DNA of 64,000 nucleotides. Origin: Bacillota bacterium. Lineage in GTDB: Bacteria > Bacillota > Clostridia > Christensenellales > SZUA-584. Within the stretch, counting starts at the first letter, position 1; the number at the start of each line of letters is the position of its first letter. Location: contig JAEYPS010000010.1 of the NCBI GenBank assembly GCA_023410475.1, positions 4,054 to 68,053 on the forward strand. Reading direction: 5' to 3'. The notes under the pieces were generated by a model that ran no database searches, had not been told where the DNA came from, and saw nothing but the letters and a program-made list of their open reading frames with translations. The position numbers and the translations under genes were made by a program. Shown here piece by piece: positions 17,453-62,165 of this stretch.

Positions 17453-17453
17453 A

Positions 17454-32914: not shown

Positions 32915-33556
32915 TCACGATGACTCCCTAGCCGCAATCATTTCCTTCGTCTTCATCAGGCGCGTCAGGTTCCCGCGCTCGTTCTCGTCGAGCTTCATCT
33001 TTATGTATTTTATAGTCTCCTCAAGCTGAGGGATCATTACGTATTCGAGTGCGTTCACGCGGCGGCGCGTCTTCTCTATCTCGTCGGCGAGCATGTTGCA
33101 CGTCTTTTCGAGCTCGGCTAATTCCACCATCTGGGGAAGTACGCTTGCGAGGCTTGCCGTAGCGCTGTCGAGCTCGGCGGACGTCGCGAGAAGCCCGTAC
33201 GGGAAGAACGCCTGCTCGCGCTTCTTCTCGGTGTACTCAATCTTTGGCACATAGACGCTCATTATGTTCTGCTTTGACAGAGACAGCTCAACCTCCCTCA
33301 CGGGGAACAGAAGCGCTTCGTCGAACGTTTCGCGGGTCATAGCGACTCTCGCCAGCACGAATCCGCCAAGGGCTGCCGAGAGAGCCGTCTCAACCTCCTG
33401 CCTTAGCTCTCTGTTGCGCTTTATAAGCAGCATGAAGCGGCGCACCATCTCGTCGCGCTTGTCTTTCAGCAGCTTGTGGCCCCTGACTGCGACGGTATGG
33501 CGGCGCTTGAGCCTTGTCAGCTCCATGCGCGTGGGGTTTACTCTCATGACAGCCAT
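32915..33556 (-). CDS. ntpD: V-type ATPase subunit D
   Basis: MAVMRVNPTRMELTRLKRR... coiled-coil central stalk protein; last gene of the ntp operon. Confidence 0.93.
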   Translation of the reverse strand: MAVMRVNPTRMELTRLKRRHTVAVRGHKLLKDKRDEMVRRFMLLIKRNRELRQEVETALSAALGGFVLARVAMTRETFDEALLFPVREVELSLSKQNIMSVYVPKIEYTEKKREQAFFPYGLLATSAELDSATASLASVLPQMVELAELEKTCNMLADEIEKTRRRVNALEYVMIPQLEETIKYIKMKLDENERGNLTRLMKTKEMIAARESS

Positions 33557-33558
33557 CG

Positions 33559-34938: not shown

Positions 34939-36706
34939 TGTCTATCCCACCTTCCTCATAGAGCACGGACATCTCATCTTTAAGTTTTCTCTCTATTTGC
35001 GCGTACCTTTCGGCAACGTCGTTTTCTTCGACATATTTCGCGCGGCCTATGTCTTCCCTGACAGAGAGCGTTGATATCTTAGAGAACTCCGCTCCGGCGT
35101 TCAATGCCTTTTCCCCAAGCTCGCCCCACATAAGTATAAGCTTCAGCATACCGTACTGCTTTTCGAGCGACGTGTATGTGTCTATATCGTGGAACGCGTT
35201 CTGGTGCAGATAGTCCTCGCGGATAGAGCGCGCCGTTTCGAGCTTAAGCTTGTCCTTCAGCGACAGAGCGTCGAAGCCTACGAGCCTGACGATCTCGTCG
35301 AGCTCAGCCTCCTCCTGCAGCAGTTGCAGGGCCTTTTGCCGAAGCTGGTTCCACTCGGGAGAAACGTTTTTATCGTACCAGTCTGTAAGCCTGTCGGCAT
35401 ACAGCGAATACGACGTGAGCCAGTCGATAGCGGGGAAGTGGCGGCGATACGCGAGCCCTGCCGACAATCCCCAGAAAACCTTGACTATCCTGAGCGTAGC
35501 CTGCGAAACAGGCTCGGATATGTCTCCGCCCGGAGGAGAGACCGCGCCTATGGCCGATATCGCTCCCGTACGGCCTTCCTTGCCTAGCGCCTTCACGATG
35601 CCTGCGCGCTCGTAGAAGCCCGCGAGCCTTGACGAGAGGTAAGCCGGGTATCCTTCCTCGCCGGGCATCTCCTCGAGACGGCCCGACATCTCACGCAGCG
35701 CCTCCGCCCATCTTGAGGTAGAGTCGGCCATGATGGCCACTTTATATCCCATGTCGCGGAAGTATTCCGCTATCGCTATTCCTGTGTATATAGACGCCTC
35801 TCTTGCGGCGACGGGCATGTCCGACGTGTTCGCGATAAGCACCGTGCGCTTCATCAAAGGCTCGCCGCTGCGTGGGTCTTTGAGCTCGGGGAACTCCATA
35901 AGAACGTCCGTCATCTCGTTGCCGCGCTCTCCGCAGCCAACGTATACAATTATCTCGGCGTCCGCCCACTTCGCGAGCTGGTGCTGCACGACGGTCTTGC
36001 CGCTGCCGAAAGGCCCCGGCACCGCCGCTACACCGCCCTTTGAGATGGGGAACAGCGTGTCTATGACGCGCTGGCCTGTTATCATAGGCTCATACGGGGC
36101 AATCTTTTCCACATACGGCCTGCCCTGCCTGACGGGCCACCGCTGCAGCATGGGAACATCGACAGTTCCGCCCGAAGCGTTCCTTAGCCTCGCTATTGGC
36201 TCAATAATTGTCGCCTCTCCCGAACCCAGCCACTCTATCTTACCGGAGACGCCGCTGGGGACCATTATGTAGTGCTTGACGAGCGTAGTCTCCTGCACAT
36301 ATCCGAGGATATCACCCGCGGTTACGTCTTCGCCGACGCCCGCTGTGGGGATGAATGTCCACTTTTTGTCGTGATCGAGAGCGTTTATCGCTATTCCGCG
36401 CGTTACCCTGTCGCCCTCGGCTTCCTTTATCTTATCGAGCGGGCGCTGTATGCCGTCGAATATAGACGTTATAAGCCCGGGAGCGAGTTCGACCGAAAGC
36501 TGGCTGCCCGTGGGGAAAACAGGCTCTCCCGGCCCAAGGCCGCTTGTCTCCTCATAAACCTGTATGGAGGCCATATCTCCCCGAAGCTCGATGATCTCGC
36601 CTATGAGCCGTTGATCGCTGACCCTGACGACATCGTACATTTCACACATCTGCATGCCTTCTGCGACTATCAAAGGCCCGGAAACCTTGACTATTCTGCC
36701 TTCCAT
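34931..36706 (-). CDS. ntpA: V-type ATPase catalytic subunit A
   Basis: Walker A GPFGSGKT and [21 protein letters not shown] 36706 lies behind GGAAGG. Confidence 0.95.
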
Positions 36707-36847
36707 AAACACAACCTTCCTGTCATATTACAATCTTTTATATACGCACTTTGCGCAGGTTCTTCCTAATTGCTGCTTAGTCCTGCATGGGATCCTTCAG
36801 AGCCTTAGGCTCCTCAGGATACCAGCGTTTACCCCGCGCAGCGCCGT

Positions 36848-37165
36848 TTATTCGTTGTCAAAGAATATATCCGTACCTATCGCCTTCTCAACGTTGGCGC
36901 GGATGTTTCTCATCCCAAGGCCCGTCGTACCCCTGTTGCCGGGTATCGGTATTATTGCCGGGTAAGGGGACGTCTTGAATTTGTCTATAGTTTCGGCGGA
37001 AACCTCGGCGGCCTGCTCCGTCACGAATATGATAGCGTAGCCGTCTGCCGCGAGCCGGTTTATGGCTTTCATTACCTCTCCGCCGACCGCGGGATATACG
37101 TCTATCCCCAGAGCCTTGAAACCTATTATGCTGTCAGAGTCGCCTACAACTCCAATCTTGTTCAT
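36848..37165 (-). CDS. ntpF: V-type ATPase subunit F
   Basis: 105 aa, MNKIGVVGDSDSIIGFKALGI... typical subunit F. Confidence 0.85.
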   Translation of the reverse strand: MNKIGVVGDSDSIIGFKALGIDVYPAVGGEVMKAINRLAADGYAIIFVTEQAAEVSAETIDKFKTSPYPAIIPIPGNRGTTGLGMRNIRANVEKAIGTDIFFDNE

Positions 37166-37174
37166 GAATACCTC

Positions 37175-38167
37175 TTAGAATATGTTTTTGAGCCGCATTG
37201 ACACGACCTGTGAGTCTATGCCGCCCTGCTTTGCCGTCATTACCATGCGCACGGCCTCGGCCTCGCGCTGCTTCGCGATGTAGTAGCACATAAGAGGCCC
37301 TATAGAAAATATGTCGTGCCTGTGCTCTTTAAGCAGCGAGAGCAGATAATCGTCGCGCGCCTTTTCGAGCATATACAGGCTCTTCGTCTTGTGGTAATCC
37401 TCAATCGCGCCCGCCAGTATGCCTGCGTAATCACCCTTAACGACCGCCTGCAAAACGCTGTCGTCGGATAGCTCGAACGCGTCGAGGAACGCTTTTTTCT
37501 CTATCCTGCCGCCCTCGAGATACGCGCCGTCGAAAGACTCCCTGCCGTAAAACGCGCGAGTTCGCATAAACGCTATTATGTTGGTCAAGTCGAACATCGC
37601 CGTATAGTAATTTCGGACGAGCTCGTCGCCCATTTCCCCGACAAGCCCGCTTACCTCTTTTGAGTAAGCGCGGTCGAGCGTCACGCCGATGATCGAAACG
37701 TCAGCCGAAACCGCGAACTGCCTGTCTATATGCTTCAAAGCTTCTTTCATGTTTTCGGGCAGGTCGTAATAGTTGTTGTCGTTTATTGCGCGTCGGAGCG
37801 TTTCCACGCTTATATTTCCGGGGAAAAGTGTTTCATCCTCAAGGCTCTTGTCGAGCATGAACAGCTTTATCAGCACCTTTAGGTTGTGATAATCCTTCGC
37901 CGCGCGCATGATCTTTATAAAAACATCGCTTGGAGAAGCGGCTTCCATAAACTCATCCGCGTCCGACAGCTCGTTGTGAATAAGCTGCTCGAACGACGCG
38001 CCGGAGCCGCTCGGCTGTCCGTAGCCCGTCTCTATAAGAACGCGCATCGCCTCTTCATAGTTTTTTGCTTCGATTATCCTCGTGAGCTTATCCTGAGTCA
38101 AAAGCCCCGCTTCCATCGACTTGACGCGGGCGGAAGCATAAGGATAGCTGCTGTTTGTTTCAGACAT
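37175..38167 (-). CDS. ntpC: V-type ATPase subunit C (d)
   Basis: 330-aa helical protein in the expected operon position. Confidence 0.85.
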   Translation of the reverse strand: MSETNSSYPYASARVKSMEAGLLTQDKLTRIIEAKNYEEAMRVLIETGYGQPSGSGASFEQLIHNELSDADEFMEAASPSDVFIKIMRAAKDYHNLKVLIKLFMLDKSLEDETLFPGNISVETLRRAINDNNYYDLPENMKEALKHIDRQFAVSADVSIIGVTLDRAYSKEVSGLVGEMGDELVRNYYTAMFDLTNIIAFMRTRAFYGRESFDGAYLEGGRIEKKAFLDAFELSDDSVLQAVVKGDYAGILAGAIEDYHKTKSLYMLEKARDDYLLSLLKEHRHDIFSIGPLMCYYIAKQREAEAVRMVMTAKQGGIDSQVVSMRLKNIF

Positions 38168-38176
38168 AAAACACCT

Positions 38177-38776
38177 TTATTTTTGATCGAACAGTAGCGC
38201 CGCGACCTCTGTTTCGGCTTCCTGCCACGACTCACTCAAAAGCGACTCCAGAGACATGTTTATCTCCATACCTGCGCTGATGTACACAAAGCCGCCCGAG
38301 ATATCACGCGAGTCGGCAAACGTTATCTCGCCCCTGCCTGCTTTTCTTTTAAGCTCACTGTTGACGTCGGCGAGGAAAGCGTCGCCTAACCGCTTCTCGT
38401 TTTCGGATACCGCTATGCTGCCTTCGCCGGATGCCGCGCAGATTATCAGCTTTTTCTTCATCAGCGTCACATATTCGGCGTCGCTTATAGCAAGCAGCTT
38501 TTCGAGCGCTAGCGATTTGGCCTTTGCCATCATCTCCTGCTTTGCCGCTAGAAGCTGTTTTCTGTTTTCAAGGTCGTAGACGGCCGCAAGCCGCCTCTTT
38601 TTCTCTGCGATGGCGTCTTCGGCGTCTTTTTCTATCTGCGCTTTCTGCCTGTCTATATCGCGCTGCATCTCTTCGTGCATCAGCTTCTTTTTGTCTTCGG
38701 CCTCGCGCCAAATCCTCTCGGCGTCACTCTGCGCTTCGCCGAGTATCTTTTCTATGAGTTTCTCCGCTCCAGCCAT
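38177..38776 (-). CDS. ntpE: V-type ATPase subunit E
   Basis: 199 aa with a long charged N-terminal helix (peripheral stalk). Confidence 0.8.
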   Translation of the reverse strand: MAGAEKLIEKILGEAQSDAERIWREAEDKKKLMHEEMQRDIDRQKAQIEKDAEDAIAEKKRRLAAVYDLENRKQLLAAKQEMMAKAKSLALEKLLAISDAEYVTLMKKKLIICAASGEGSIAVSENEKRLGDAFLADVNSELKRKAGRGEITFADSRDISGGFVYISAGMEINMSLESLLSESWQEAETEVAALLFDQK

Positions 38777-38789
38777 CTATGCCACGTCC

Positions 38790-39281
38790 TTACGCTCTGC
38801 CCGTTCCGAGAAGAACGATGAGCATCGATATCAGCAGCGCGAACACCGCGTACGTCTCGACCATGATTGCCATCGTTATGGCCTTGCCCTGCTCTTCGGG
38901 GCGCTTGCCGAGGAGCGCGATACCGGCGACAGCCGTATGCCCCTGATGTATGGCGGACGTAAGCCCGACGAGCCCTATCGGCAGTCCTGCGGCAAAGTAT
39001 ATCCAGCCCTGAGCCGCTGATATCATCGGGTCTCCGCCGACGACGCCGTTGTTGAGCAGTATAAGGAACGCGACGAGGAGCCCGTAGATGCCCTGCGTGC
39101 CCGGCAGCAGCTGTAATACCAGCGCCGCGCCGAATTTATCAGGATCTTCCGCGACGAGGCCCGCGGCCGCCTGGCCCGAGAGGCTTATGCCCTTCGCGGA
39201 GCCTACGCCCGCGAGGCCGACCGCTATAGCGGCGCCGAACGTCGAGATGATCATACCAAAGTGCTGACCAAAAAATTCCAT
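38790..39281 (-). CDS. ntpK: V-type ATPase proteolipid subunit K (4-TM c subunit)
   Basis: LQLLPGTQGIYG and MVETYA motifs. The 163-aa double hairpin closely resembles Enterococcus hirae NtpK. Confidence 0.9.
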   Translation of the reverse strand: MEFFGQHFGMIISTFGAAIAVGLAGVGSAKGISLSGQAAAGLVAEDPDKFGAALVLQLLPGTQGIYGLLVAFLILLNNGVVGGDPMISAAQGWIYFAAGLPIGLVGLTSAIHQGHTAVAGIALLGKRPEEQGKAITMAIMVETYAVFALLISMLIVLLGTGRA

Positions 39282-39360
39282 AAAATGTTTACCCTCCTGT
39301 ATAGAAATAAACTTTATTGCTTTGTTTAATGTTATATAAACCGCGCCCCGGCGGCTTTCT

Positions 39361-41274
39361 TTATTCCTCCATCAAGCGGTGGTTTTTTGCCCGCACGGCG
39401 AGAGGCATGAACGTACGGCCTCCGCCCTCGTAGAACTTGTTGAAAAACTCTATATACTGCAGCCTCGCGGTATGCACGAACGCTCCCAAAACGTTTATTG
39501 CTATGTTGAACGTATGCCCTACCGTCAGAACCACGATGGCGAAGATGTATCCGAACCAATGCCCCATAAGCATACCGCCTATGGTGTTGAACACCTGCGC
39601 TATGACAGTCGTCGCGAGCCCCATTCCGAATATACGGCAGTAGGACAGTATGTCGCTTATATATCCCGTTACGCCGTAGATGCTTGCTAGCCCGCCCGTT
39701 ATCTTTTTTATTACGCCCTTCTTGTGGCGGCCTTGCGTCAGCAGCAGTATAACTAAGCCGCCGATCAGCGCATAAAACCCGATGCTGCCCAAATCGCCGC
39801 CGAGCAGCAGCATTATTCCGCCCGCTATGACCATTATCCACGAGAACCTGTCGAATATAGCGCCCAGTATGTCGCCGCGCTTTATGTCCTTGTACATTCC
39901 GAAGATTATGCCCGCGAATATGTGCAGTATGCCCATGCCTATGCAGAGCACGAGCAGTATTATTGGGTCGGTATTCGGGTTGACGAGCGCTATCAGCGAT
40001 ACGGATTCTATGCTGAAAACGGTGCCGAAGATTATGCCCCAGAATATCGTCGATATTCCGCATATCATGAGCACCGTGGTTATCATCTTGAACATGCCGG
40101 TTGGCTTTTTGAGCCTTAAAACCGCGAACGCGCCGACAGACAATAGAGCGCCGTACGCGGCGTCGCCTATCATCATTCCGAAAATGAGGAAATAGAAGAT
40201 GGATACGAGGATGTTTGGGTCTACGCCCTTCGACGATGGTACCGCGTACATATTAGTAACGGCCTCGAACGGCTTAACTACACTCGGGTTTTCCACCGCC
40301 GTCGGCGGTATCTCGTCCTTTTCGGGGTCGCGGAAGGATATGTATGACTCAGGTGCGGACTCGAGCAGCGTTTTTTCGACATTGCCGACTGTATCGGCGA
40401 TTACCCAGCCCTCGAGCATGAACGCAGAGCCCGTCTCGCCGAGCTTTAATATGCTGCGCTCGCGCTCTATTTCGTTGACAAGATAGTCCTCGAGCGCGCA
40501 GAGCAGCTCCCTGTCGTCCGCGAAGCGCCTCGCCTTTTGCTCGTACTCGTCCGTTTCCTTCTCTAGAGCTTCGCACTCGCTCTTAAGGTCGAACACTATG
40601 TCACTGGGCACGCCGTACATTTCTTTGGTGAACGCATCTGAAAAGCCTATATATTTCAGCTCGCCGATGAGTTTTTCATGCACGCTCTTGTGCATAAGAA
40701 CGAATATGAAAAGCCCCTCTCGGCTCTCGCTGAGTGTTTCGAAATACGCGGTGTCACTGTAACGCTCCTCTATCTCGCAGTACGCCTTTATATTGTCTGC
40801 GGGCACGGAGCCTAACAACGCCTCGGTGTAAATGTTCTCGTCCACATACTCTAGCGGCGCGTCAAATTTAAGGTAGGGCTCAAGCTGCGATATCCGCGTC
40901 CCGAGGCGCTGCCTTCTTGTTTTGAGCGAATTCATATCGTCAGAGAATTGCTTTATCTTTGATATTGCCTTATCGGCCTCTTCAAGCTTCTCGCTCATGC
41001 CGTGAAGCCCGGACATCGTTATCGGGGGTTTGGGAGTAAGAAAACCTGGTTTGTTCTCGTCGTATTTGCGTATTATCTCGAGCGCTTCGCGCACTGTTGA
41101 CAGCTTTGCCTCGAGCCCGCTCAAAGACTGGGGCTCGGCGGACGGCTTTAAGTCGTGAGCCTGCTTTAAAACCGATATCTCGACAGCGCCAAGCTTCTGC
41201 AGCGTTTTTAATATGCTGTCTTTGCTCCCAGCGTGCGCTATAAGCGAAAGCTTTTTCATCTTAAGGAGCGCCAT
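39361..41274 (-). CDS. ntpI: V-type ATPase subunit I (a)
   Basis: 637 aa with a soluble N-terminal half and a C-terminal multi-TM stator. Confidence 0.9.
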   Translation of the reverse strand: MALLKMKKLSLIAHAGSKDSILKTLQKLGAVEISVLKQAHDLKPSAEPQSLSGLEAKLSTVREALEIIRKYDENKPGFLTPKPPITMSGLHGMSEKLEEADKAISKIKQFSDDMNSLKTRRQRLGTRISQLEPYLKFDAPLEYVDENIYTEALLGSVPADNIKAYCEIEERYSDTAYFETLSESREGLFIFVLMHKSVHEKLIGELKYIGFSDAFTKEMYGVPSDIVFDLKSECEALEKETDEYEQKARRFADDRELLCALEDYLVNEIERERSILKLGETGSAFMLEGWVIADTVGNVEKTLLESAPESYISFRDPEKDEIPPTAVENPSVVKPFEAVTNMYAVPSSKGVDPNILVSIFYFLIFGMMIGDAAYGALLSVGAFAVLRLKKPTGMFKMITTVLMICGISTIFWGIIFGTVFSIESVSLIALVNPNTDPIILLVLCIGMGILHIFAGIIFGMYKDIKRGDILGAIFDRFSWIMVIAGGIMLLLGGDLGSIGFYALIGGLVILLLTQGRHKKGVIKKITGGLASIYGVTGYISDILSYCRIFGMGLATTVIAQVFNTIGGMLMGHWFGYIFAIVVLTVGHTFNIAINVLGAFVHTARLQYIEFFNKFYEGGGRTFMPLAVRAKNHRLMEE

Positions 41275-43896: not shown

Positions 43897-44748
43897 TCAG
43901 CTGTCCTCGCTCTCTGTAAGCCATTCTTTTTTAGAATTGGGCGTGTTGTTCATTTTGATGAGAGTTTCATAAGCTTCCACATCTCTATCTTTTATTGATT
44001 TACCGAAGCGCTCTAGCTTTAGATAAGGATAATCTATAATGTCATATTCTTTGCCGTCCATAACTACTTTTTTAATTCTGTTTGAGCTTGACCAAATCCA
44101 AGAAAATAGCATTCTTATTTCGCCCGGAGTCAAATCCTCTGCAAAGAACACGTCTTCCATTTTTATTCTGTTTTCATCTGTCGGACTTTCATAAAACGCG
44201 TTTATGATTTCTATTCCGTTTATAAATCTTTCCCTTTTTTCTTCTGTATCAAGCAAAGTGATATGCACTATCCCCAGCAAAGAATCATCATGTAAATAAG
44301 TATTGAATACCGTAGCCAATGCTTCAGGATACATCTTCTCAAGTTTCCCATTTATTATATTTAACTGCTCTTCATATGTTTTTCTGAAGAAATGCCAGGT
44401 CATATCATCTGAAAAAGTACCAAACGAGCCATTCAAACCATCGAGCATATCCGGCGTAATCTTACCTTCATCAAGCATATCTTTTATGAACAGCAAGGCA
44501 TATTCATCCCCATAAGTTTGATAGTACATCTTGTACTTATCGTATTCCTCCATGTTTTTCGCCGCTTCGATCTCCTCCGGCGACAATGTCGGCTCGGGCG
44601 TAGGTGTAGGCTTCGGTGTAGGGGAAGGTGTTGGCTCGGGTGTCGATACTGGTGTCGACGCTGGTGTTTGTTCCGCTGGAGCGGCGGTGCATGCGCATAG
44701 CGACAATATCATTGCGGTACATAACAATATACATAAAGTCTTCTTCAT
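43897..44748 (-). CDS. Paralogous lipoprotein 1 (Pro/Thr-rich linker), unknown function
   Basis: Lipobox LSLCAC, linker TPASTPVSTPEPTPSPTPKPTPTPEPT, conserved tail NNTPNSKKEWLTESEDS. Confidence 0.75.
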   Translation of the reverse strand: MKKTLCILLCTAMILSLCACTAAPAEQTPASTPVSTPEPTPSPTPKPTPTPEPTLSPEEIEAAKNMEEYDKYKMYYQTYGDEYALLFIKDMLDEGKITPDMLDGLNGSFGTFSDDMTWHFFRKTYEEQLNIINGKLEKMYPEALATVFNTYLHDDSLLGIVHITLLDTEEKRERFINGIEIINAFYESPTDENRIKMEDVFFAEDLTPGEIRMLFSWIWSSSNRIKKVVMDGKEYDIIDYPYLKLERFGKSIKDRDVEAYETLIKMNNTPNSKKEWLTESEDS

Positions 44749-44751
44749 GTG

Positions 44752-45600
44752 TCAGTTCTCCTCGCTCTCTGTCAGCCAGTCTTTTTTGGAATTGGGAGTG
44801 TTGTTTAGCTTAACAAGTTCTTCATAGGCTTCCATATGTCTGTACCCGAGTGATTTTCCGAATCTCTCTATATTCATAGAAAAATAATCACGCCTGTCAT
44901 AAGTATTACCATCTACCGTGACATTTTCCAAATAATTAGGATTAGTTAAAGCCCACATCATCAATACTTCTATCTCTCCAGCTGTCAATCCTTCTGAAAA
45001 AAACATATCTTCCATTTTTATTCTTGTTTCATCGGTTGGGGTTTTACACCATTCATTTATAATTTTTATTCCATTTTCTACTCGGTTTCTTTTCTCTTCG
45101 CTATCAAATACACTTATATATGTTTTCCCTTCCCAAGCCATGTTCTGTAGTTCTCCTAATGTGTTATCTACCGTTGATGGACTTAATGTCTCACTAGTTC
45201 CATTTAATATTCTACACCATTGGCCATAAACATCTTCAATGAATGCCCAATTTCCTGCATCATTTGAATCGATCAAATAAGAATCTACATCATAAAACAT
45301 ATCTTCTGAGATTTTTCCTTGGTCATACATTTTTTTGATAAGGAAAGCAGCATATTCATCGCCATAATTCTCGCTGTATGCTTTTAGCTTTTCATACTCC
45401 TCCATGTATTTCGCCGCTTCGATCTCCTCCGGCGATAATGTCGGCTCGGGTGTAGGCGTCGGCTCCGATGTTGGGGAAGGTGTTGGCTCGGGTGTCGATA
45501 CTGGTGTCGACGCTGGTGTTTGTTCCGCTGGTGCGGCGGTACATGCGCAAAAAGACAGAATCATTGCGGTACATAACAATAAACATAATATCTTCTTCAT
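44752..45600 (-). CDS. Paralogous lipoprotein 2
   Basis: Lipobox LSFCAC, same linker, tail NNTPNSKKDWLTESEEN. Separated by 3 nt from paralog 1. Confidence 0.75.
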   Translation of the reverse strand: MKKILCLLLCTAMILSFCACTAAPAEQTPASTPVSTPEPTPSPTSEPTPTPEPTLSPEEIEAAKYMEEYEKLKAYSENYGDEYAAFLIKKMYDQGKISEDMFYDVDSYLIDSNDAGNWAFIEDVYGQWCRILNGTSETLSPSTVDNTLGELQNMAWEGKTYISVFDSEEKRNRVENGIKIINEWCKTPTDETRIKMEDMFFSEGLTAGEIEVLMMWALTNPNYLENVTVDGNTYDRRDYFSMNIERFGKSLGYRHMEAYEELVKLNNTPNSKKDWLTESEEN

Positions 45601-45623
45601 GTGTCAGTTCTCCTCGCTTTCCG

Positions 45624-46475
45624 TCAGCCAGTCTTTTCAGAATTAGGGGTGTTGTTTAGTTCAATGAGGGTTTCATAGGCTTCAACGTATCGCTTACCCA
45701 TTGACACTCCATATTTTTCTATAACTTTACTGAGATAATCACTAAGACTATATTTTTTACCACCTACCCTTACTTCTTTGATTTGAACGACATCCGGGCT
45801 TGACGAAATCCAAGTAAATAGTAATAGTATTTCTCCAGGTGTTAATTCCTCTGAAAAAAACATATCCTCTATTTGCTCTCTGTTTTCATCAGTAGGACTT
45901 TGAAAAAAATCATTTATTATTTCTATGCCCGCTAATACTCGTTCTCTTTCTTCTGAATCAAACAGAGTTATAGGTATTTTCCCTTCAGAAGCATAATCCC
46001 ATAAACTATTTATTACAAAACTAAGTGCTTCAGAATACATTTTTTCCTGTTTACCATACAGAATTGATGACCGTTCTTCATAATCTAACCGAAATGTTTC
46101 CCATGTTAACTCATCTGCAGGGCCAGTTTCTACTGGATTCCCGTTTTTTATTATTATCATAGCTTCATTAAACATATCCTCTGTAATTTTCTCTTCATCC
46201 AGCATGTCCCTGATAAACAATAAAGCAAAATCGTCACCATATGTCCGATAGTACATCTTGTACTTTTCGTATTCTTCAATGTTTTTCGCCTGCTCGATCT
46301 CCTCCGGCGATAATGTCGGCTCCGGCGTAGGCGTCGGCTCAAGTGTAGGGGAAGGTGTTGGCTCGGATGTCGATACCGGTGTCGGCGCTGGTGTTTGTTC
46401 CGCTGGAGCGGCGGTGCATGCGGTGAAGCTGAATATCAGTAAAACCGCCAACAGTGTTATACAATACTTTTTCAT
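45624..46475 (-). CDS. Paralogous lipoprotein 3 (C-terminal tail lost by a 1-nt frameshift)
   Basis: Lipobox FSFTAC, same linker. Ends NNTPNSEKTG*, but the ancestral tail DWLTESEEN* is still readable in the -1 frame down to 45604. Confidence 0.7.
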   Translation of the reverse strand: MKKYCITLLAVLLIFSFTACTAAPAEQTPAPTPVSTSEPTPSPTLEPTPTPEPTLSPEEIEQAKNIEEYEKYKMYYRTYGDDFALLFIRDMLDEEKITEDMFNEAMIIIKNGNPVETGPADELTWETFRLDYEERSSILYGKQEKMYSEALSFVINSLWDYASEGKIPITLFDSEERERVLAGIEIINDFFQSPTDENREQIEDMFFSEELTPGEILLLFTWISSSPDVVQIKEVRVGGKKYSLSDYLSKVIEKYGVSMGKRYVEAYETLIELNNTPNSEKTG

Positions 46476-57205: not shown

Positions 57206-57664
57206 TTAAAGCTCTTTTATCATTGCGAGCCTGTCGTCGCCCGTGCCGTACTCGTCGAACGAGCCTTCCACAAGAGTAAACCCTAGTTTTTCGCGGTAGG
57301 TGGAAAGCGCCTTGAAGTTCGCGGGGTCTACTGTAAGCTGTATCGTCTCTATGCCGAGCTCGCTTATATCGGAGAACGCGTATTCGAGAAGCGCTACGCC
57401 TATGTCATACCCGGAAAATGCGGGCAGCACCGCGACGCTCAAAAGATATGCGACTCTGGGGTCTGTCATGTCGCGTATAAAGTAGGAGCTCGCTATTGGC
57501 TCGTCGTCCTCGTCGGCGGCGATGTATATCCTGCCGTGGCGCATGAGCGGTATCACTACGTGCTCGCTAAGAGCCCCGCTGCCGAACGCCGCCCTTTCAA
57601 TGCCCAGTATGTAATCGATCATATCGGGATCGGGCTTTTCCACCGCTTTGAATGTAATGGTCAT
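57206..57664 (-). CDS. GNAT-family N-acetyltransferase
   Basis: ATG 57664 lies behind GGAGG. GNAT core AVLPAFSGYDIGVALLEYA. Confidence 0.8.
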   Translation of the reverse strand: MTITFKAVEKPDPDMIDYILGIERAAFGSGALSEHVVIPLMRHGRIYIAADEDDEPIASSYFIRDMTDPRVAYLLSVAVLPAFSGYDIGVALLEYAFSDISELGIETIQLTVDPANFKALSTYREKLGFTLVEGSFDEYGTGDDRLAMIKEL

Positions 57665-57729
57665 AAATTCCTCCATAAAGTATTAAAAGATAACGCAGGC
57701 TGATATATTTATCAAACAAGCGTTGCTGT

Positions 57730-58452
57730 TTACTTTAAGCCTGAATACTCGGCCGCGTAAGCATCCTTGCTTTTATCGCCCCCGCTGTCTATCAGCGAAT
57801 CTGCCCGAAAGCTGAGCGCCGCTCCGTCGCCGATTATTATGTGGTCTATAAGCTCTATCCCCAGTGTGCCCAGCGCGCTTCTTATATCATGAGTTGCACT
57901 TATGTCGGCGCCTGAAGGAGTAACGTCCCCGCCAGGGTGGTTGTGGGCGACGATGCCCTTAACGGCCCGGTGGCGGATAGCTCCCGCCGCGAGTTTTCCG
58001 ATGTTTACCGGGGCCTCCTGCATATCTCCCTCCGAGAGCCGCTCATAATGAATGACCCTTCCCTGCGTATCGAGCCATATGACGTAAAACTGCTCGTAAG
58101 GCTTGCCGAAAAGAAGGGATCTCGCAAACGCACACGCGTCCTTTAAAGACTTTATACAGGGGCGCTTTTTAAGCTTGCTGCGCTCATACGCCCGAAACAG
58201 CTCCGGAAACATAGTAAGGTACGCCGCCGCGCGCCTGCCAATTCCTTCTGTGCGCTCAAGGTCCTTCACGTCCGCCTCAAGAACGCCCGAAAGGCTGCCG
58301 AACGCGCCGATCAGCCTGTTGGCGACGGCGTTCGTATCTGCCCTCGGAATGACGTGAAACAGCAGATATTCAAGTATTTCGTGTTCTGCAGACCCCTCGA
58401 GCCCTTCGCGTAGCAGTCTTTCCGTGAGGCGCTGCCGATGGCCTTCATGCAT
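57730..58452 (-). CDS. radC: RadC-family JAB-domain protein
   Basis: HEGHRQRL N-terminus, HhH region, JAB motif AHNHPGG. Confidence 0.9.
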   Translation of the reverse strand: MHEGHRQRLTERLLREGLEGSAEHEILEYLLFHVIPRADTNAVANRLIGAFGSLSGVLEADVKDLERTEGIGRRAAAYLTMFPELFRAYERSKLKKRPCIKSLKDACAFARSLLFGKPYEQFYVIWLDTQGRVIHYERLSEGDMQEAPVNIGKLAAGAIRHRAVKGIVAHNHPGGDVTPSGADISATHDIRSALGTLGIELIDHIIIGDGAALSFRADSLIDSGGDKSKDAYAAEYSGLK

Positions 58453-58471
58453 CGTGCCTCCAAGTTATACG

Positions 58472-58678
58472 TTAAGAGCAGCAGCCTTTGCAGGCGCTGC
58501 AGTTGCCTGTGCTGCAGGCGCCCCCTCCATGGCCTCCTCCTCCGAAATAGCATTTGCCCTGATAAAAGCGCTTCGTGTTTTGCGAAGCGCACGCCGGGCA
58601 GGCAGGTTTGCTGTCCGGGTTTGTCAGCTCCTCAAAGACGGCTTTGCAGTCTTCGCATATGTATTTAAGCAGCGGCAT
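58472..58678 (-). CDS. FmdB-family zinc-ribbon protein
   Basis: YICEDCKAVFE...CPACAS CxxC pairs and a Gly/Cys-rich tail. Confidence 0.8.
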   Translation of the reverse strand: MPLLKYICEDCKAVFEELTNPDSKPACPACASQNTKRFYQGKCYFGGGGHGGGACSTGNCSACKGCCS

Positions 58679-58699
58679 CGTTTTCCTCCATTCGCGGGG

Positions 58700-59638
58700 C
58701 TATAGCATCTTTTTACGCCAGAGCCACAGCGCGGCTCCAACTGTCAATGCAATAGAGCTGCCTGTTATTATCCAGAAGCCCCCTGGCATATCGAGAAACG
58801 GCACGTCGAGGTTCATTCCCCACAGGCTCGCAATAAGCGTGGGCACAGCGAGTATTATTGTTACCGACGTCAAGAACTTCATGACGATGTTGAGGTTATT
58901 TGAAATCACCGACGCGAACGCGTCCATCGTGCCCGCGAGTATGTCCCTGTAGATAGTACACATCTCTATGGCCTGCTTGTTTTCGACTATTACGTCCTCC
59001 AAAAGCTCCTCGTCGTCCGGATAACGCTTTATCATCGTGGTTTTCATCATCTTTTCGAGCACTGTCTCGTTTGCCTTCAGCGAGGTCGCGAAATACACAA
59101 GGGATTTTTCGAGCTTTAGCATCTGTATCAGCTCGCGGTTTTTCATAGATTTGTGCAGCGCGTTTTCCACCTGAGTGCTCGCTTTGTCTATCTGGCGAAG
59201 GTGCTGCAAAAAACGCGACGAGTTTTTGAACAGCAGCTGATAGACGAACCGCGTCTTTTTGCTGCAGTCGAAGCCCCTCACGCGCCCTTTTGCGAAATCC
59301 TCAATTATAGTTGTTTCCTCGAGGCATACGGTTATTATGTTGTTGTCGGTGATGATAATGCCAAGAGGCATTGTATTATACAAAAACGACGTTCCCTCCG
59401 GTTCGACAACAGGGATGTCGACAAGTATCAAAACCGCGTTATCTTCCTTGTCGATACGCGGAGTCTCTTCTTCGTCGAGCGCAGCAGATAACAGGCTAAT
59501 ATCGACACCGTAGTCTTTGGAGATAAACTCCAGTTCTTCTTTGCTGGGGTCGGTAAGGTTAATCCACGAGCACTGGCATGGCTCGCAGCCACAGTCGAGC
59601 GAACCGTTTTCGTATCTGAAATAGTTTATCATTGGCAA
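58700..59638 (-). CDS. corA: CorA-family Mg2+/Co2+ transporter
   Basis: GMN motif (LWGMNLDVPF) between two C-terminal TMs. Confidence 0.9.
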   Translation of the reverse strand: MPMINYFRYENGSLDCGCEPCQCSWINLTDPSKEELEFISKDYGVDISLLSAALDEEETPRIDKEDNAVLILVDIPVVEPEGTSFLYNTMPLGIIITDNNIITVCLEETTIIEDFAKGRVRGFDCSKKTRFVYQLLFKNSSRFLQHLRQIDKASTQVENALHKSMKNRELIQMLKLEKSLVYFATSLKANETVLEKMMKTTMIKRYPDDEELLEDVIVENKQAIEMCTIYRDILAGTMDAFASVISNNLNIVMKFLTSVTIILAVPTLIASLWGMNLDVPFLDMPGGFWIITGSSIALTVGAALWLWRKKML

Positions 59639-59854
59639 GCACCGCCTTTCTTAAGATACCCAAAAGCTATTGATCTTTGGGCTTGCAGCGGTGTGCACCA
59701 TTTAGCTTGCGTTATGGTATGCACGCCGCTTGTGTGTTGCATGTCTTCGTTTAGGGTCTGCGTCCACGCATACCACCTCCGTAAAATGTTGTGTGTATTT
59801 CGAGAGCCAAATTTCATGCGCTCAAAACCTTAGTTAATTATAGCACGTGAATAA
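59639..59854 (-). promoter_or_regulatory. corA promoter plus a structured 5' leader of about 180 nt
   Basis: Minus strand TTGATT (59854-59849), 16 nt, TGcTATAAT (-10 at 59832-59827). The leader contains mutually exclusive helices (see findings). Confidence 0.45.
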
Positions 59855-59907
59855 AATAAATCAACAAAAGATGCGGGCGCGCAAATTCTTAAAACCGTCA
59901 TGTATAT

Positions 59908-59936
59908 TTGACACGCGTTATGGCCAGATTTATAAT
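59908..59936 (+). promoter_or_regulatory. Perfect consensus sigmaA promoter of the orphan noncoding unit
   Basis: TTGACA (59908-59913), 17 nt, TATAAT (59931-59936). Confidence 0.7.
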
Positions 59937-59942
59937 TATAGA

Positions 59943-60238
59943 GCGGCGTGTCTGTGGTTGAAAGTCGATGCCAGCCGCGGGCGAAACGACCCACGTAATC
60001 CGATCAGTTTCGGTGAGCATGGCGCGGTTTAGAAGTAAGCCCGGCCGGTAATTTTTATCCGAGAGGCATAGTAGTGGGGAAGGTTAATCTTTTATGAGCG
60101 AAATGCCCAGCCGGCGGATGTGGGGGCAAAGACCAGGTCAGACGCCGCACTATTTTTGAAACACGGCAGGCGGTCAGGGGCCGCCGGGCCGGATTAAGGA
60201 CAGCCGGAAAATTTGCAAAACCGGCTGTTCTGTTTTTT
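59943..60238 (+). ncRNA. Unclassified structured RNA of about 295 nt (stand-alone sRNA or very large riboswitch-like leader)
   Basis: GC-rich island in an AT-rich spacer with no credible ORF. Long-range helix 59943-59958 / 60132-60148 encloses about 170 nt with several local hairpins. The unit ends in an intrinsic terminator. Confidence 0.55.
60200..60238 (+). terminator. Intrinsic terminator of the noncoding unit
   Basis: ACAGCCGG-13 nt-CCGGCTGT (8 bp) followed by TCTGTTTTTT. Confidence 0.8.
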
Positions 60239-60379
60239 ATTATATTTCAGACTGTTCACGGAATCGGGTTTATCTCTAAAAACCGGGAATGGCCGGGTTT
60301 GTTTTTACTTATATAATATGGTATCGTTTCTTTAAGGCATTCATACGATTCTATTAAATTTAACAGTGAGGCAAAAATA

Positions 60380-60577
60380 ATGAACTTTAAACTGATAAGG
60401 AATCTATGGCTATTAACAGGATTATTCACGCTGGCATCTTTAATAATAAACTTAACTGGCAATATGTCGATTCTGCTGATTGCTTACGGGATCACACTTG
60501 TTCTCGTGCTGACTTGCGCTTATATTTACCACCGAAAAGGCATTAAAGATAATACGGAAGAGAAAAAAAGTAAATAA
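60380..60577 (+). CDS. 65-aa two-TM small membrane protein
   Basis: RBS GTGAGG 8 nt upstream; hydrophobic hairpin plus a Lys/Glu-rich tail; AT-rich. Confidence 0.5.
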   Translation: MNFKLIRNLWLLTGLFTLASLIINLTGNMSILLIAYGITLVLVLTCAYIYHRKGIKDNTEEKKSK

Positions 60578-60615
60578 TCTAGCGGTTTTAACCAGCAGCT
60601 TTTCTTTGTTTATCT

Positions 60616-61311
60616 TTACAGAGGATTTGATTTTATCTTTGAAAATCTGCGCGGATATAAGTCCGGCGCGGGTTTTTGCTTTTCTATAAGTATTATTGCG
60701 CCGGGGTCTATGAAATGCGCATCGTTTACGCGGCAGCCGAGCGTCTTTATCGCACCTGGCGCTTGAGAGAGCTCTTCCTCATAGCTCTCGCCCTTCCACG
60801 CGGCGAAGGCTCCGCCTACCCGAATGAACGCAGCGCAAAGCTCTAAGAGCATATTAAGAGGAGCGACAGCTCGCGATAGCACGAAGTCGAAACTCTCGCG
60901 CAGTAAGCCTCTTGCCTCCTCCTCGGCGCGCCCCGCAATAACGGTAACGCCAACTCCAAGCTTATCGGCGGCGCGCTTTATGAACTCGCACTTCTTGGCC
61001 GACGAATCGAGCAGAGTCATTTCAATATCGGGGCGCAGCAGCTTTACGGGCATGCCGGGAAAGCCCGCGCCCGAGCCTATGTCTATAACACCGGAGCCCG
61101 AAGGGATATCAAGGAACGAAAAAACGCGCGCGCTGTCCGAGAAGTGCTGCTTCGCGGCTTGCTCTTCGTCCGTTATGCGCGTCAGGTTCATATGCTTGTT
61201 TGCCTCAAAGACGAGTTTATAGTATTCCTCGCAAAGCGCTATCTGTGTTTGCTCGTATGTTATTCCCGCTTCGTCGAGGCTGCGACTCAGAGATTCGCGG
61301 AATATGCTCAT
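60616..61311 (-). CDS. rsmG: 16S rRNA (guanine527-N7)-methyltransferase RsmG
   Basis: SAM motif VIDIGSGAGFPG. ATG 61311 overlaps the ispE stop (ATGA). Confidence 0.9.
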   Translation of the reverse strand: MSIFRESLSRSLDEAGITYEQTQIALCEEYYKLVFEANKHMNLTRITDEEQAAKQHFSDSARVFSFLDIPSGSGVIDIGSGAGFPGMPVKLLRPDIEMTLLDSSAKKCEFIKRAADKLGVGVTVIAGRAEEEARGLLRESFDFVLSRAVAPLNMLLELCAAFIRVGGAFAAWKGESYEEELSQAPGAIKTLGCRVNDAHFIDPGAIILIEKQKPAPDLYPRRFSKIKSNPL

Positions 61312-62165
61312 TGCTCTTCGATAACCTCCACTCCCATGGCTGTCGGCCGAAAAGCGCCGCACAGCTCGAAATCGCCTTTTACCCTCTCCGCTGTTTCGCG
61401 GGCGGCCTCATATGTTTCAAAAGCGGCAAATACCGCGCTGCCCGAGCCTGTCATGAACGCCTTACCGGCGCCCGCGGCTTTAAGAGCATCCGCCGCCTTC
61501 AGTATGGCGGGAGCCACGCTGAGCGCAGCCATACCAAGAGCGTTGCCCGCGTATCTGTTAAAAAGCTCTGCGTCGCCTTTAAGCACCGCATATTTAACTG
61601 AATCTATGCTTACATGGGCGGAACCGATGTAGTTCATGAACGCCTCGGCTGTGGAGACGCCCTGGTGCGGCTTTACCACGGCGTAGAACATGGGTTTCGC
61701 GGCATTGAGAGGGGTCAGCCGCTCACCTATGCCTTTAGCTCGGGCGAGACCGCCCGTAAGCGCGAACGGAACGTCGGCGCCAACCGAAACCGCGATGCCG
61801 TTTAAAGCTTCAAAGCTCAAAGTGGTCTCATAAAGCCTGTCTAGGCCGACGAGCACTGCCGCCGCGTCGGCGCTTGCGCCGCCTAGACCCGCCATGCGGG
61901 GTATGCTCTTTTGTATAGATATATCAGCGCCTTGCGAGCCGGTAAACTTTAAAAACGCCTCGGCGGCTCTATAAGCCGTGTTGTCCTGCCCGGTCGCCCA
62001 GTCCTTGTCCATCCGCACCGTTACGCCCTCGGCCTTTTCTATCATGACGGTGTCATACAGCGATATGCTTTGCATTATCGTGTCGAGCTCGTGGTAACCG
62101 TCTTCCCGCTTGCCTGTTATATCGAGCGAAAGATTGAGTTTTGCGTATGCTTTTAGAGTTATCAT
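61308..62165 (-). CDS. ispE: 4-diphosphocytidyl-2-C-methyl-D-erythritol kinase
   Basis: AKLNLSLDITGKREDGYH N-terminus and GHMP motif PRMAGLGGASADAAA. Confidence 0.93.
   Translation of the reverse strand: MITLKAYAKLNLSLDITGKREDGYHELDTIMQSISLYDTVMIEKAEGVTVRMDKDWATGQDNTAYRAAEAFLKFTGSQGADISIQKSIPRMAGLGGASADAAAVLVGLDRLYETTLSFEALNGIAVSVGADVPFALTGGLARAKGIGERLTPLNAAKPMFYAVVKPHQGVSTAEAFMNYIGSAHVSIDSVKYAVLKGDAELFNRYAGNALGMAALSVAPAILKAADALKAAGAGKAFMTGSGSAVFAAFETYEAARETAERVKGDFELCGAFRPTAMGVEVIEEQ

What the first reader, a model, noticed from the sequence alone, without database searches (positions are those of the whole stretch)
59908..60238. Self-contained GC-rich structured noncoding unit of about 295 nt and unknown class, divergent from corA
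A perfect TTGACA-17-TATAAT promoter (59908-59936) is followed by about 295 nt with no credible ORF. The unit ends in a strong intrinsic terminator (60200-60238).

- The 5' end GCGGCG..TCTG-TGGT (59943-59958) pairs with ACCA...CAGA-CGCCGC (60132-60148). This closes a domain of about 170 nt.
- That domain contains local helices, for example CCGA/TCGG at 60000-60014, CCGCG/CGCGG at 59976-59980 / 60023-60027, and GGCAT/ATGCC at 60065-60069 / 60103-60107.
- After the closing helix come GGCGG/CCGCC and the terminator, which looks like an expression platform.

The segment is much more GC-rich than the surrounding spacer. By eye it lacks the signature motifs of RNase P, SRP RNA, tmRNA, 6S, cobalamin, lysine, glycine, TPP, SAM, ydaO and M-box RNAs. 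The only downstream gene on this strand is a 65-aa two-TM ORF (60380-60577), 140 nt past the terminator. The unit could be a stand-alone sRNA or a large riboswitch-like leader for that micro-protein.
Basis: seen in the sequence. Interest (0 to 1): 0.7.

Follow-up and report, generated by a model that had tools for sequence, protein, structure and literature searches.

The report
Known raiA (ModT) noncoding RNA gene
The GC-rich structured unit is an ordinary, full-length copy of the already described raiA motif RNA (also called ModT), a stand-alone bacterial noncoding RNA with its own promoter and terminator, not a new RNA class and not a riboswitch for the small downstream ORF.

Summary
There is a perfect TTGACA-17-TATAAT promoter at 59908-59936, about 295 nt with no credible ORF, a long closing helix, and a hairpin plus U-run terminator ending at 60238.

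The class is not unknown. Rfam's raiA model (RF03072) matches 59941-60150 end to end at 184.8 bits (gathering score 101.3, E 4e-47).

- **Structure.** Every published hallmark is present: three-part P1 with GU and GGU bulges, GAA(A) junction, bent P3, PK1, PK2, P4, the UUAGAAGUAA linker and the P6-P7-P8 domain. On 10 relatives 97.4% of cells pair, and 19 pairs show compensatory changes.
- **3' tail.** The supposed "expression platform" is a lineage-specific tail (one hairpin plus terminator). It resembles the long ModT isoform of C. difficile.
- **65-aa ORF.** It has no homologue among 5.8 billion proteins and is missing even from the closest relative.
- **Neighbours.** Genes downstream of the RNA differ between relatives. 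The divergent corA side is conserved in 16 of 20 raiA loci examined (all 12 reached through CorA similarity, 4 of 8 others). This fits an independent, trans-acting RNA gene.

Verdict: already known, low interest.

By-product: corA carries a conserved, unannotated 5' leader that looks like a translational switch.

The parts
59908..59913 (+). -35 hexamer TTGACA of the raiA RNA promoter
   Evidence: 12/12 match with 17-nt spacer. TTGAC and a TATAAT-like -10 hexamer stand at the same distance upstream in 18 of the 20 related raiA loci printed.
59931..59936 (+). -10 hexamer TATAAT. The inferred transcription start is about 59942-59943, at the first pairs of P1.
   Evidence: The start is inferred from spacing, not measured. 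The Rfam match begins at 59941.
59941..60150 (+). raiA motif RNA (ModT), complete, 210 nt
   Evidence: Rfam RF03072: 184.8 bits against a gathering score of 101.3, E 4e-47, model positions 1-209 of 209 (again).
59941..59959 (+). P1 5' strand: P1a 59941-59949, GU bulge 59950-59951, P1b 59952-59954, P1c 59955-59959
   Evidence: Pairs listed. P1a covaries (7 of 12 P1a/P1b pairs have compensatory changes). The bulge identities match the cryo-EM description in PMC12968392.
59960..59963 (+). GAAA junction (GAA(A) tetraloop-like turn). No P2 is present.
   Evidence: The sequence sits at the same numbering as G20-A23 of the C. acetobutylicum RNA described in PMC12968392. Mapped by homology, not tested.
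59964..59990 (+). P3 hairpin: P3a 59964-59967/59987-59990, asymmetric loop AU / GAAA, P3b 59970-59972/59980-59982. The apical loop 59973-59979 forms PK1.
   Evidence: P3a has 2 of 4 pairs with compensatory changes, and P3a and P3b are 100% paired. Description in PMC12968392.
60023..60028 (+). PK1 3' strand, pairing with 59974-59979
   Evidence: 98.3% paired, 2 pairs with compensatory changes. The same pairs are in the Rfam consensus.
59991..59994 (+). P4 5' strand CCAC, pairing with GUGG at 60120-60123
   Evidence: invariant and 100% paired, so uninformative for covariation. Assigned from the text of PMC12968392.
60000..60013 (+). P5 hairpin (CCGA / UCGG)
   Evidence: 2 of 4 pairs with compensatory changes.
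60020..60021 (+). PK2 5' strand (UG), pairing with CA at 60127-60128. A60129 is the likely bulged A that completes the GAA(A) turn.
   Evidence: Invariant in 10 sequences. Assigned by homology to PMC12968392; inferred.
60029..60038 (+). Exposed single-stranded linker UUAGAAGUAA
   Evidence: Matches the conserved UUAGA(C/A)GUAA linker, which PMC12968392 proposes as the KhpA-KhpB binding site.
60041..60114 (+). P6 (60041-60045/60110-60114), P7 hairpin (60046-60061) and P8 arm (60065-60107) with the loop-E-like UAGUA / GCGAAA motif
   Evidence: P7, P8a and P8c carry compensatory changes; P6 is invariant.
60131..60150 (+). P1 3' strand: P1c 60131-60135, GGU bulge 60136-60138, P1b 60139-60141, P1a 60142-60150
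60151..60157 (+). UAUUUUU run directly after the GC-rich P1. Possible first termination site, which would give a short isoform of about 215 nt.
   Evidence: Seen in the sequence. U-rich stretches directly follow P1 in several relatives, clearest in L090. Analogy with ModT(S) in PMC11706538; inferred.
60165..60190 (+). 3' tail hairpin (GGC-GGCGGUC / GGCCGCC-GCC)
   Evidence: Conserved in sequence in the window, L091, L092, L001 and L093 only. No covariation is available.
60197..60238 (+). Intrinsic terminator: 11-bp stem 60197-60207/60221-60231, 13-nt loop, U-run 60233-60238. This is the end of the long form of about 295 nt.
   Evidence: Conserved in the five closest relatives.

Best explanation
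Positions 59941-60150 encode a raiA motif RNA (Rfam RF03072, renamed ModT in C. difficile). It belongs to the subtype without P2 and with the P7/P8 domain, the same subtype as the C. acetobutylicum RNA.

**Shown here**
- It is a stand-alone gene with a perfect housekeeping-sigma promoter that starts transcription at the first pairs of P1.
- The RNA sequence fits the compact published architecture: a three-part closing stem P1, a bent P3 whose loop forms PK1, and P4 with PK2. Together these form the core and leave the 10-nt linker UUAGAAGUAA single-stranded.

**Inferred**
- Transcription probably ends at two places: at the U-run right after P1 (a short form of about 215 nt), and at the hairpin terminator ending at 60238 (a long form of about 295 nt with one extra tail hairpin).
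- By homology with the studied members, the RNA is expected to be abundant and stable and to act in trans. It would not regulate a neighbouring gene.
- The most likely mode of action is as a rigid protein-binding scaffold. KhpA-KhpB binding at the exposed linker has been reported in vitro. This would influence the switch from growth to stationary phase and sporulation.

The biochemical function of the family is still unknown.
For: **Identity**
- Full-length Rfam hit at 184.8 bits against a gathering score of 101.3. It is the only Rfam hit in the 64-kb window.
- All named structural elements map onto the sequence.

**Structure in relatives**
- On 10 relatives the published structure, including both pseudoknots, is 97.4% paired.
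- 19 pairs carry compensatory changes, and 0 of 500 shuffles reach the observed values on four of five measures (1 of 500 on the fifth).
- Slid controls give 30-48% pairing.

**Ends of the unit**
- Promoter 12/12. A TTGAC -35 and a TATAAT-like -10 hexamer stand at the same distance in 18 of the 20 related loci printed. This matches the conserved SigA promoter reported for modT (PMC11706538).
- The terminator and tail fold at z -4.98 and are conserved in the 5 closest relatives. This matches the read-through long isoform described for C. difficile, C. perfringens and P. sordellii.

**Independence from neighbours**
- The downstream neighbour varies: rsmG, DUF2141, DUF559, a QRPTase gene and unknown genes.
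- The 65-aa ORF is an orphan.

**Function of the family**
- Trans action and phenotypes: PMC10861870, PMC11706538.
- KhpA-KhpB binding and the exposed linker: PMC12968392.
Against: - No expression data exist for this organism, so the start, the two ends and the abundance are inferred.
- The usual neighbours of the family (comFC upstream in 74%, raiA/hpf downstream in 66%) are not in the 64-kb window. This is atypical, but it is not a defining feature.
- Minor departures from consensus: an A-A mismatch at the second P1a pair (59942/60149), and G instead of A at the first position of the P3 internal loop (59983).
- The protein-scaffold mechanism is not established. PMC11706538 states that earlier KhpB and Hfq studies did not detect ModT binding, whereas PMC12968392 reports low-micromolar KhpA-KhpB binding in vitro.
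- Ribozyme or ligand-binding roles remain open in the literature.
Confidence: 0.93

Rival explanations
1. It is a large riboswitch-like 5' leader. Its terminator would be an expression platform controlling read-through into the 65-aa two-TM ORF at 60380-60577.
For: - Same strand, with the ORF 140 nt past the terminator.
- The ORF has a plausible GAGG ribosome-binding site.
- Rfam still labels the family 'Cis-reg; riboswitch'.
Against: - The ORF has no homologue among 5.8 billion proteins.
- The ORF and the AT-rich DNA at 60239-60620 are absent from every related locus, including L091 (CorA 92% identical).
- The downstream gene varies in identity and in strand among relatives.
- The tail and terminator are conserved only in the closest relatives.
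- The family was shown to work in trans and to lack expression platforms (PMC10861870; PMC11706538).
Confidence: 0.02
2. It is a raiA motif RNA, but it works as a ribozyme or as a small-molecule or second-messenger sensor rather than as a protein scaffold.
For: - About 51 highly conserved nucleotides and an intricate fold; the Breaker group speculates on catalysis (PMC10861870).
- ModT deletion changes c-di-GMP levels (PMC11706538).
- The authors of PMC12968392 say they cannot exclude non-canonical c-di-GMP binding.
Against: - No substrate, ligand or catalytic activity has been reported.
- The fold does not resemble known c-di-GMP riboswitches.
- Nothing in this window bears on the question.
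Confidence: 0.25
3. In this lineage the raiA RNA is functionally coupled to magnesium transport. It would be co-regulated with corA through the shared divergent promoter region, for example because a very abundant, magnesium-dependent fold tracks or buffers Mg2+.
For: - The RNA gene lies back to back with corA, with 43 nt between the two -35 hexamers (59864 / 59908).
- The arrangement holds in 16 of 20 raiA loci examined: all 12 reached through CorA similarity, a route that favours the arrangement, and 4 of the 8 found by the raiA sequence pattern (L081, L083/L085 near-identical, L088, L089).
- The other flank of the RNA gene is not conserved.
Against: - Synteny alone can be inherited by descent within one order.
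- The DNA between the two promoters is not conserved.
- corA is not mentioned in the main text of the two functional studies or of the 2017 discovery paper.
- corA has its own separate leader.
Confidence: 0.08

Closest known systems
raiA motif RNA / ModT (Rfam RF03072; Weinberg 2017 PMC5737381; Soares 2024 PMC10861870; Lence 2024 PMC11706538)
   Same: - Full-length covariance-model match.
- All conserved stems, both pseudoknots and the conserved linker are present.
- SigA-type promoter starting at P1.
- Higher GC than its surroundings.
- A 3' terminator extension like ModT(L).
- Host in the Clostridia (Bacillota).
   Different: - The neighbours are corA (divergent) and rsmG (convergent), not comFC and raiA/hpf.
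- The 3' tail is longer (about 90 nt, one extra hairpin plus the terminator) than the 45-nt extension of C. difficile.
- The tail is specific to a few close relatives.
C. acetobutylicum raiA RNA subtype (no P2, with P7/P8), solved by cryo-EM (PMC12968392)
   Same: - Same subtype, almost the same length (210 against 204 nt), and the same numbering of U19-G20-A21-A22-A23.
- Same GU and GGU bulges.
- The linker UUAGAAGUAA fits the reported UUAGA(C/A)GUAA.
   Different: - P5, P7 and the distal part of P8 differ in sequence and length, as they do throughout the family.
- Only one isoform was detected in C. acetobutylicum, whereas this locus has a separate downstream terminator.
Transcription-terminating riboswitches (aptamer plus terminator expression platform)
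   Same: A structured GC-rich domain closed by a P1 helix, followed by a hairpin and U-run on the same strand as a downstream ORF.
   Different: - There is no conserved regulated gene.
- The terminator lies 46 nt beyond P1, after an intervening tail hairpin, so it does not directly abut the P1 3' strand. Mutually exclusive pairing was not tested.
- The family complements in trans.
Abundant housekeeping-like structured ncRNAs (6S RNA, SRP RNA, OLE RNA)
   Same: Own strong promoter, stable compact fold, expected high abundance and long half-life, and a likely ribonucleoprotein role.
   Different: No sequence or structural homology. No defined protein partner or biochemical activity has been established yet.

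Membership tests
raiA motif RNA (RF03072) | Covariance-model score at or above the curated gathering score over the full model | tested here: met
   184.8 bits against 101.3, model 1-209/209, E 4e-47.
raiA motif RNA (RF03072) | Three-part closing stem P1 with a conserved GU bulge (5' strand) and GGU bulge (3' strand) | tested here: met
   P1a 59941-49/60142-50, GU 59950-51, P1b 59952-54/60139-41, GGU 60136-38, P1c 59955-59/60131-35. P1a covaries in relatives.
raiA motif RNA (RF03072) | P3a-P3b hairpin with an A-rich asymmetric internal loop, whose apical loop forms pseudoknot PK1 just 5' of the linker | tested here: met
   59964-59990 and 59974-79/60023-28. Both P3a and PK1 show compensatory changes and are 98-100% paired.
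raiA motif RNA (RF03072) | P4 and PK2 completing the core | tested here: inconclusive
   The complementary sequences are present (59991-94/60120-23; 60020-21/60127-28). They are invariant in all 10 sequences, so pairing can be neither supported nor contradicted by covariation.
raiA motif RNA (RF03072) | Conserved 10-nt single-stranded linker UUAGA(C/A)GUAA between PK1 and P6 | tested here: met
   UUAGAAGUAA at 60029-60038.
raiA motif RNA (RF03072) | P6 with either a small hairpin or the P7/P8 multi-stem domain carrying an E-loop | tested here: met
   P6, P7 and P8 at 60041-60114, with compensatory changes in P7 and P8. The UAGUA/GCGAAA motif is present; its E-loop geometry is not testable here.
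raiA motif RNA (RF03072) | Independent transcription from its own SigA-type promoter, and action in trans | not testable with these tools
   The promoter consensus is present and is conserved in most relatives. Transcription and trans action need experiments.
raiA motif RNA (RF03072) | Typical (not obligatory) context: comFC upstream and raiA/hpf downstream | tested here: not met
   No comFC, hpf, secA or prfB domain appears in any sizeable ORF of the window. Published frequencies are 74% and 66%, so this is a tendency and not a defining feature.
raiA motif RNA (RF03072) | Host within Bacillota or Actinomycetota | tested here: met
   The closest CorA homologues and syntenic loci come from Christensenellales / Christensenellaceae assemblies. 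The window also carries gerA/gerB/gerC spore-germination genes.
Riboswitch (cis-regulatory leader) | A conserved gene or gene class immediately downstream in the same orientation | tested here: not met
   The downstream ORF is an orphan and is absent from relatives. The neighbours differ in identity and in strand.
Riboswitch (cis-regulatory leader) | An expression platform whose terminator or SD-sequestering helix competes with the aptamer's closing helix | tested here: inconclusive
   The terminator starts 46 nt after P1 and is separated from it by an independent hairpin. It is conserved only in the 5 closest relatives. No systematic search for alternative pairings was made.

The most novel reading that the evidence does not exclude
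Within Christensenellales the raiA RNA gene has left its usual comFC-hpf neighbourhood and is locked back to back with a leader-controlled corA gene. This holds in 16 of 20 loci examined, 12 of which were found through CorA similarity. In the closest relatives the RNA has also gained a conserved 3' tail hairpin. This could reflect a real functional link between this very abundant, magnesium-dependent RNA fold and Mg2+ homeostasis, which would give a first physiological handle on a family whose biochemical function is still unknown.
Probability: 0.08. Interest if true: 0.55.

Novelty: already known. Interest (0 to 1): 0.12.

Why it matters
The finding itself does not change anything. It is a routine annotation of a family that already has an Rfam model, more than 2,300 known sequences, knockout phenotypes in two clostridia and several cryo-EM structures.

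Its value is modest:
- It records that members of this Christensenellales lineage keep the RNA in a non-canonical but stable context, divergent from corA.
- It records that they have a longer, lineage-specific terminator tail, which is relevant to the open question of what the long isoform does.

The more promising lead is the by-product. A strongly conserved, unannotated corA 5' leader, with a short upstream ORF and mutually exclusive helices that would hide the corA ribosome-binding site, could be an undescribed magnesium-transport regulator.

Tried and rejected
- **Promoter/terminator scan.** It found the promoter but not the terminator, because its loop limit is 8 nt. Folding resolved this.
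- **Permissive Rfam search of 59500-60700 at E<=1.** It returned nothing besides raiA and a chance OmrA-B hit at 19.5 bits. No known family therefore covers the 3' tail or the corA leader.
- **Rfam consensus versus cryo-EM structure.** The Rfam structure (2017 model) pairs 59968-70 with 60119-21 and 59990-91 with 60021-22. These pairs conflict with the cryo-EM description (P3b, P4, PK2). I adopted the cryo-EM assignment, which gave 97.4% pairing.
- **Pfam scan of sizeable ORFs across the window, for comFC, hpf, secA and prfB.** None was found.
- **Homologue search for the 65-aa ORF.** Only the ORF itself was returned. tblastn and blastn against 100 loci gave only noise.
- **3' tail covariation.** Four sequences were too similar and gave no informative pairs.
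- **corA leader read as a simple 6-codon leader peptide.** This is only partly tenable. The stop codon is replaced in 6 of 17 sequences, giving longer ORFs, although the first six codons, MRG[RHTK][RG]P, are kept.
- **CorA loci L003-L080.** Apart from marginal hits of about 17 bits in L003 and L070, they carry neither the raiA RNA nor the leader next to corA. One (L014) has an M-box instead.

Full report
**Observation.**
- TTGACA (59908-59913), a 17-nt spacer and TATAAT (59931-59936) form a 12-of-12 promoter match. It is the only perfect one in 59500-60800.
- The next 300 nt hold only short mechanical ORFs.
- The region is GC-rich (0.49-0.64) between AT-rich flanks.
- The 5' end pairs with 60131-60150.
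- A hairpin with an 11-bp stem (60197-60207 / 60221-60231), followed by a U-run to 60238, closes the unit.

**Identity.** A gathering-threshold Rfam scan of the whole 64-kb window gave a single hit. It was raiA RNA (RF03072) at 59941-60150 on the plus strand: 184.8 bits against a gathering score of 101.3, E 4e-47, covering model positions 1-209 of 209.

The family was described in 2017 (PMC5737381). It was expanded to 2,377 distinct sequences in 2,720 species and knocked out in C. acetobutylicum (PMC10861870). It was renamed ModT and studied in C. difficile (PMC11706538), and it has been solved by cryo-EM (PMC12968392 and papers cited there).

**Anatomy.** I combined the Rfam alignment with the written description of the cryo-EM structures. 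Every named element maps onto the window.

| Element | Window coordinates |
|---|---|
| P1a | 59941-49 / 60142-50 |
| GU bulge | 59950-51 |
| P1b | 59952-54 / 60139-41 |
| GGU bulge | 60136-38 |
| P1c | 59955-59 / 60131-35 |
| GAA(A) junction | 59960-63 |
| P3a | 59964-67 / 59987-90 |
| P3b | 59970-72 / 59980-82 |
| PK1 | 59974-79 / 60023-28 |
| P4 | 59991-94 / 60120-23 |
| P5 | 60000-03 / 60010-13 |
| PK2 | 60020-21 / 60127-28 |
| Linker UUAGAAGUAA | 60029-38 |
| P6 | 60041-45 / 60110-14 |
| P7 | 60046-61 |
| P8 | 60065-60107 |

There is no P2, so this is the C. acetobutylicum subtype.

**Relatives and covariation.**
- A CorA-based scan of species-representative genomes placed the locus among Christensenellaceae / Christensenellales assemblies. 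The two closest (L001, L002) carry a raiA RNA in the same divergent position.
- A DNA pattern from the RNA's 3' half found nine more raiA RNAs in metagenomes.
- Ten look-ups of CorA homologues at 92-71% identity all returned a raiA RNA next to corA.
- On ten diverse sequences the structure above, pseudoknots included, is 97.4% paired. 19 pairs carry compensatory changes. No shuffle of 500 reaches the observed value on four of five measures (one of 500 does on the fifth). Slid controls pair at 30-48%.
- P4, P6, PK2 and P1b/c never vary, so they are uninformative.

**Ends of the transcript.**
- The promoter is conserved in position. TTGAC and a TATAAT-like hexamer occur in 18 of the 20 related loci printed. 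This agrees with the conserved SigA promoter reported for modT.
- Directly after P1 the window reads UAUUUUU. Several relatives also have a U-rich stretch there, clearest in L090.
- Further on come a tail hairpin (60165-60190) and the terminator. Together they fold with z -4.98.
- The tail is conserved in sequence only in the window, L091, L092, L001 and L093.
- I infer two ends, giving forms of about 215 nt and about 295 nt. This is by analogy with the short and read-through long ModT isoforms of C. difficile, C. perfringens and P. sordellii. It is not measured.

**Why it is not a leader.**
- The 65-aa ORF (60380-60577) has no Pfam match.
- It has no homologue among 5.8 billion proteins other than itself.
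- The ORF and the surrounding AT-rich DNA (60239-60620) are missing from all related loci. These include L091, where rsmG follows the RNA's terminator directly.
- The gene on the downstream side of the RNA varies: rsmG convergent, DUF2141, a 377-aa unknown protein, DUF559, or a quinolinate phosphoribosyltransferase gene.
- The other side is conserved as corA, a zinc-ribbon protein, radC and a GNAT acetyltransferase, extended by an S4-domain gene and ispDF in most of the loci that reach that far.
- The literature gives the same verdict for the family: variable distance and orientation, no expression platforms, and rescue in trans.

**Mechanism.**
- Shown here: family membership, promoter, fold and terminator.
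- Taken from experiments on other members:
  - The RNA is very abundant and stable and acts in trans.
  - Its loss impairs sporulation and aggregation (C. acetobutylicum).
  - Its loss delays entry into stationary phase and alters c-di-GMP and toxin production (C. difficile).
- The best current mechanistic idea is a rigid scaffold that presents the conserved single-stranded linker to RNA-binding proteins. KhpA-KhpB binds several raiA RNAs in vitro at low-micromolar affinity.
- That idea is not settled. Earlier C. difficile studies did not see KhpB binding, and ribozyme or ligand-sensing roles have not been excluded.

**Comparison and novelty.** This is a member of a known family by every sequence and structure criterion I could test. 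The unmet features are the usual comFC/hpf neighbourhood, which is a tendency and not a definition, and a few minor departures from the consensus sequence. No comFC, hpf, secA or prfB gene occurs anywhere in the window. The stable pairing with corA in this lineage and the lineage-specific 3' tail are small additions. I rate the finding as already known and of low interest.

**By-product: a conserved corA leader.** On the minus strand, corA is preceded by a promoter and a leader of about 200 nt.
- The corA start is at ATG 59632, because the homologues are 310 aa.
- The promoter is TTGATT, 16 nt, then TG-extended TATAAT (59864-59837).
- The core of the leader is nearly invariant in 17 sequences. 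It contains, in order:
  - GGAGGUGGUAUGCGUGGA, which is a Shine-Dalgarno sequence plus the AUG of a short ORF, MRG[RHTK][RG]P, followed by a stop or an extension;
  - GCGGCGUGCAUACC;
  - GCARGC;
  - UGCACACCGCU;
  - AAGGCGGUGCUUGCC just before the corA AUG.
- RNAalifold pairs the first block with the second. It pairs the third and fourth blocks with the corA ribosome-binding site.
- The second and fourth blocks can pair with each other instead.
- Both alternatives are about 88% paired, with a few compensatory changes.
- No Rfam family matches, even at E<=1. A homologous corA in L014 has an M-box instead.

This looks like a translational switch and deserves its own follow-up. It is not part of the finding under review.

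Noticed in passing
window 59633-59864, minus strand (also L001, L002, L081, L083/L085, L088, L089, L091-L100): Conserved, unannotated 5' leader of corA.
- Own promoter: TTGATT-16-TGnTATAAT.
- A near-invariant SD plus AUG of a short upstream ORF (59771-59751, MRGRRP*).
- Three arms (59730-59716, 59697-59687, 59648-59634) that can form either a helix hiding the corA Shine-Dalgarno sequence or an alternative helix.
- No Rfam match at E<=1.
- Found in 17 distinct sequences (18 loci; L083 and L085 are near-identical), always next to a raiA RNA gene.

This is a candidate new translational or Mg2+-related switch.
   Followed up: partly
window 60239-60620: AT-rich segment (GC 0.25-0.42) holding the 65-aa two-TM ORF (60380-60577). 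It is absent from all relatives, including the closest (L091), and the ORF has no homologue in 5.8 billion proteins. It is probably a recent insertion carrying an orphan or spurious ORF. A second weak hairpin plus U-run lies at about 60279-60307.
   Followed up: yes
window 59632 vs 59638, minus strand: The mechanical ORF list starts corA at TTG 59638 (312 aa). The homologues are almost all 310 aa, and the SD AAGGCGGUG sits 7 nt before ATG 59632, so the real start is most likely ATG 59632 (MINYF...).
   Followed up: yes
window 57206-62165 and loci L092-L100: Stable gene order in this lineage: raiA RNA, then divergent corA, a Zn-ribbon protein, radC and a GNAT acetyltransferase, extended by an S4-domain gene and ispDF in most of the loci that reach that far. 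The flank beyond the raiA RNA is variable. The usual raiA-family neighbours (comFC, hpf, secA, prfB) are nowhere in the 64-kb window.
   Followed up: yes
L088, L096, L097, L098, L099 (25-80 nt downstream of the raiA RNA): A recurring hairpin of the type CCUCCCCUUGAGGGGAGG (with small variations, e.g. in L097) follows the raiA RNA in a subgroup of relatives. It takes the place of the tail hairpin and terminator seen in the window. It contains SD-like and anti-SD-like sequences. Its role is unknown.
   Followed up: no
L082 and L084 (about 30 nt downstream of the raiA RNA): In two metagenomic relatives a small CxxC zinc-ribbon ORF (MYQDKTLVCRDCGQEF...) starts about 30 nt after the raiA RNA on the same strand. 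L084's RNA also carries a roughly 48-nt insertion in P7 (256 nt in total).
   Followed up: no
window 43897-46475, minus strand: Three tandem paralogous genes of about 283 aa (58% and 51% identity). Each has a signal peptide with a lipobox-like Cys and a Pro/Thr-rich linker, and none has a Pfam match: a small lineage-specific lipoprotein family.
   Followed up: partly
window 802-2145 (minus strand) and 58700-59632 (minus strand): The window encodes two magnesium transporters, MgtE and CorA. No M-box riboswitch is detected anywhere in the window at Rfam gathering threshold.
   Followed up: partly
window 26220-27395, 16155-20212, 32915-41274: An IS110-family transposase; a gerA/gerC/spore-permease germination operon, which suggests a spore-forming host; and a V-type ATPase operon.
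   Followed up: no
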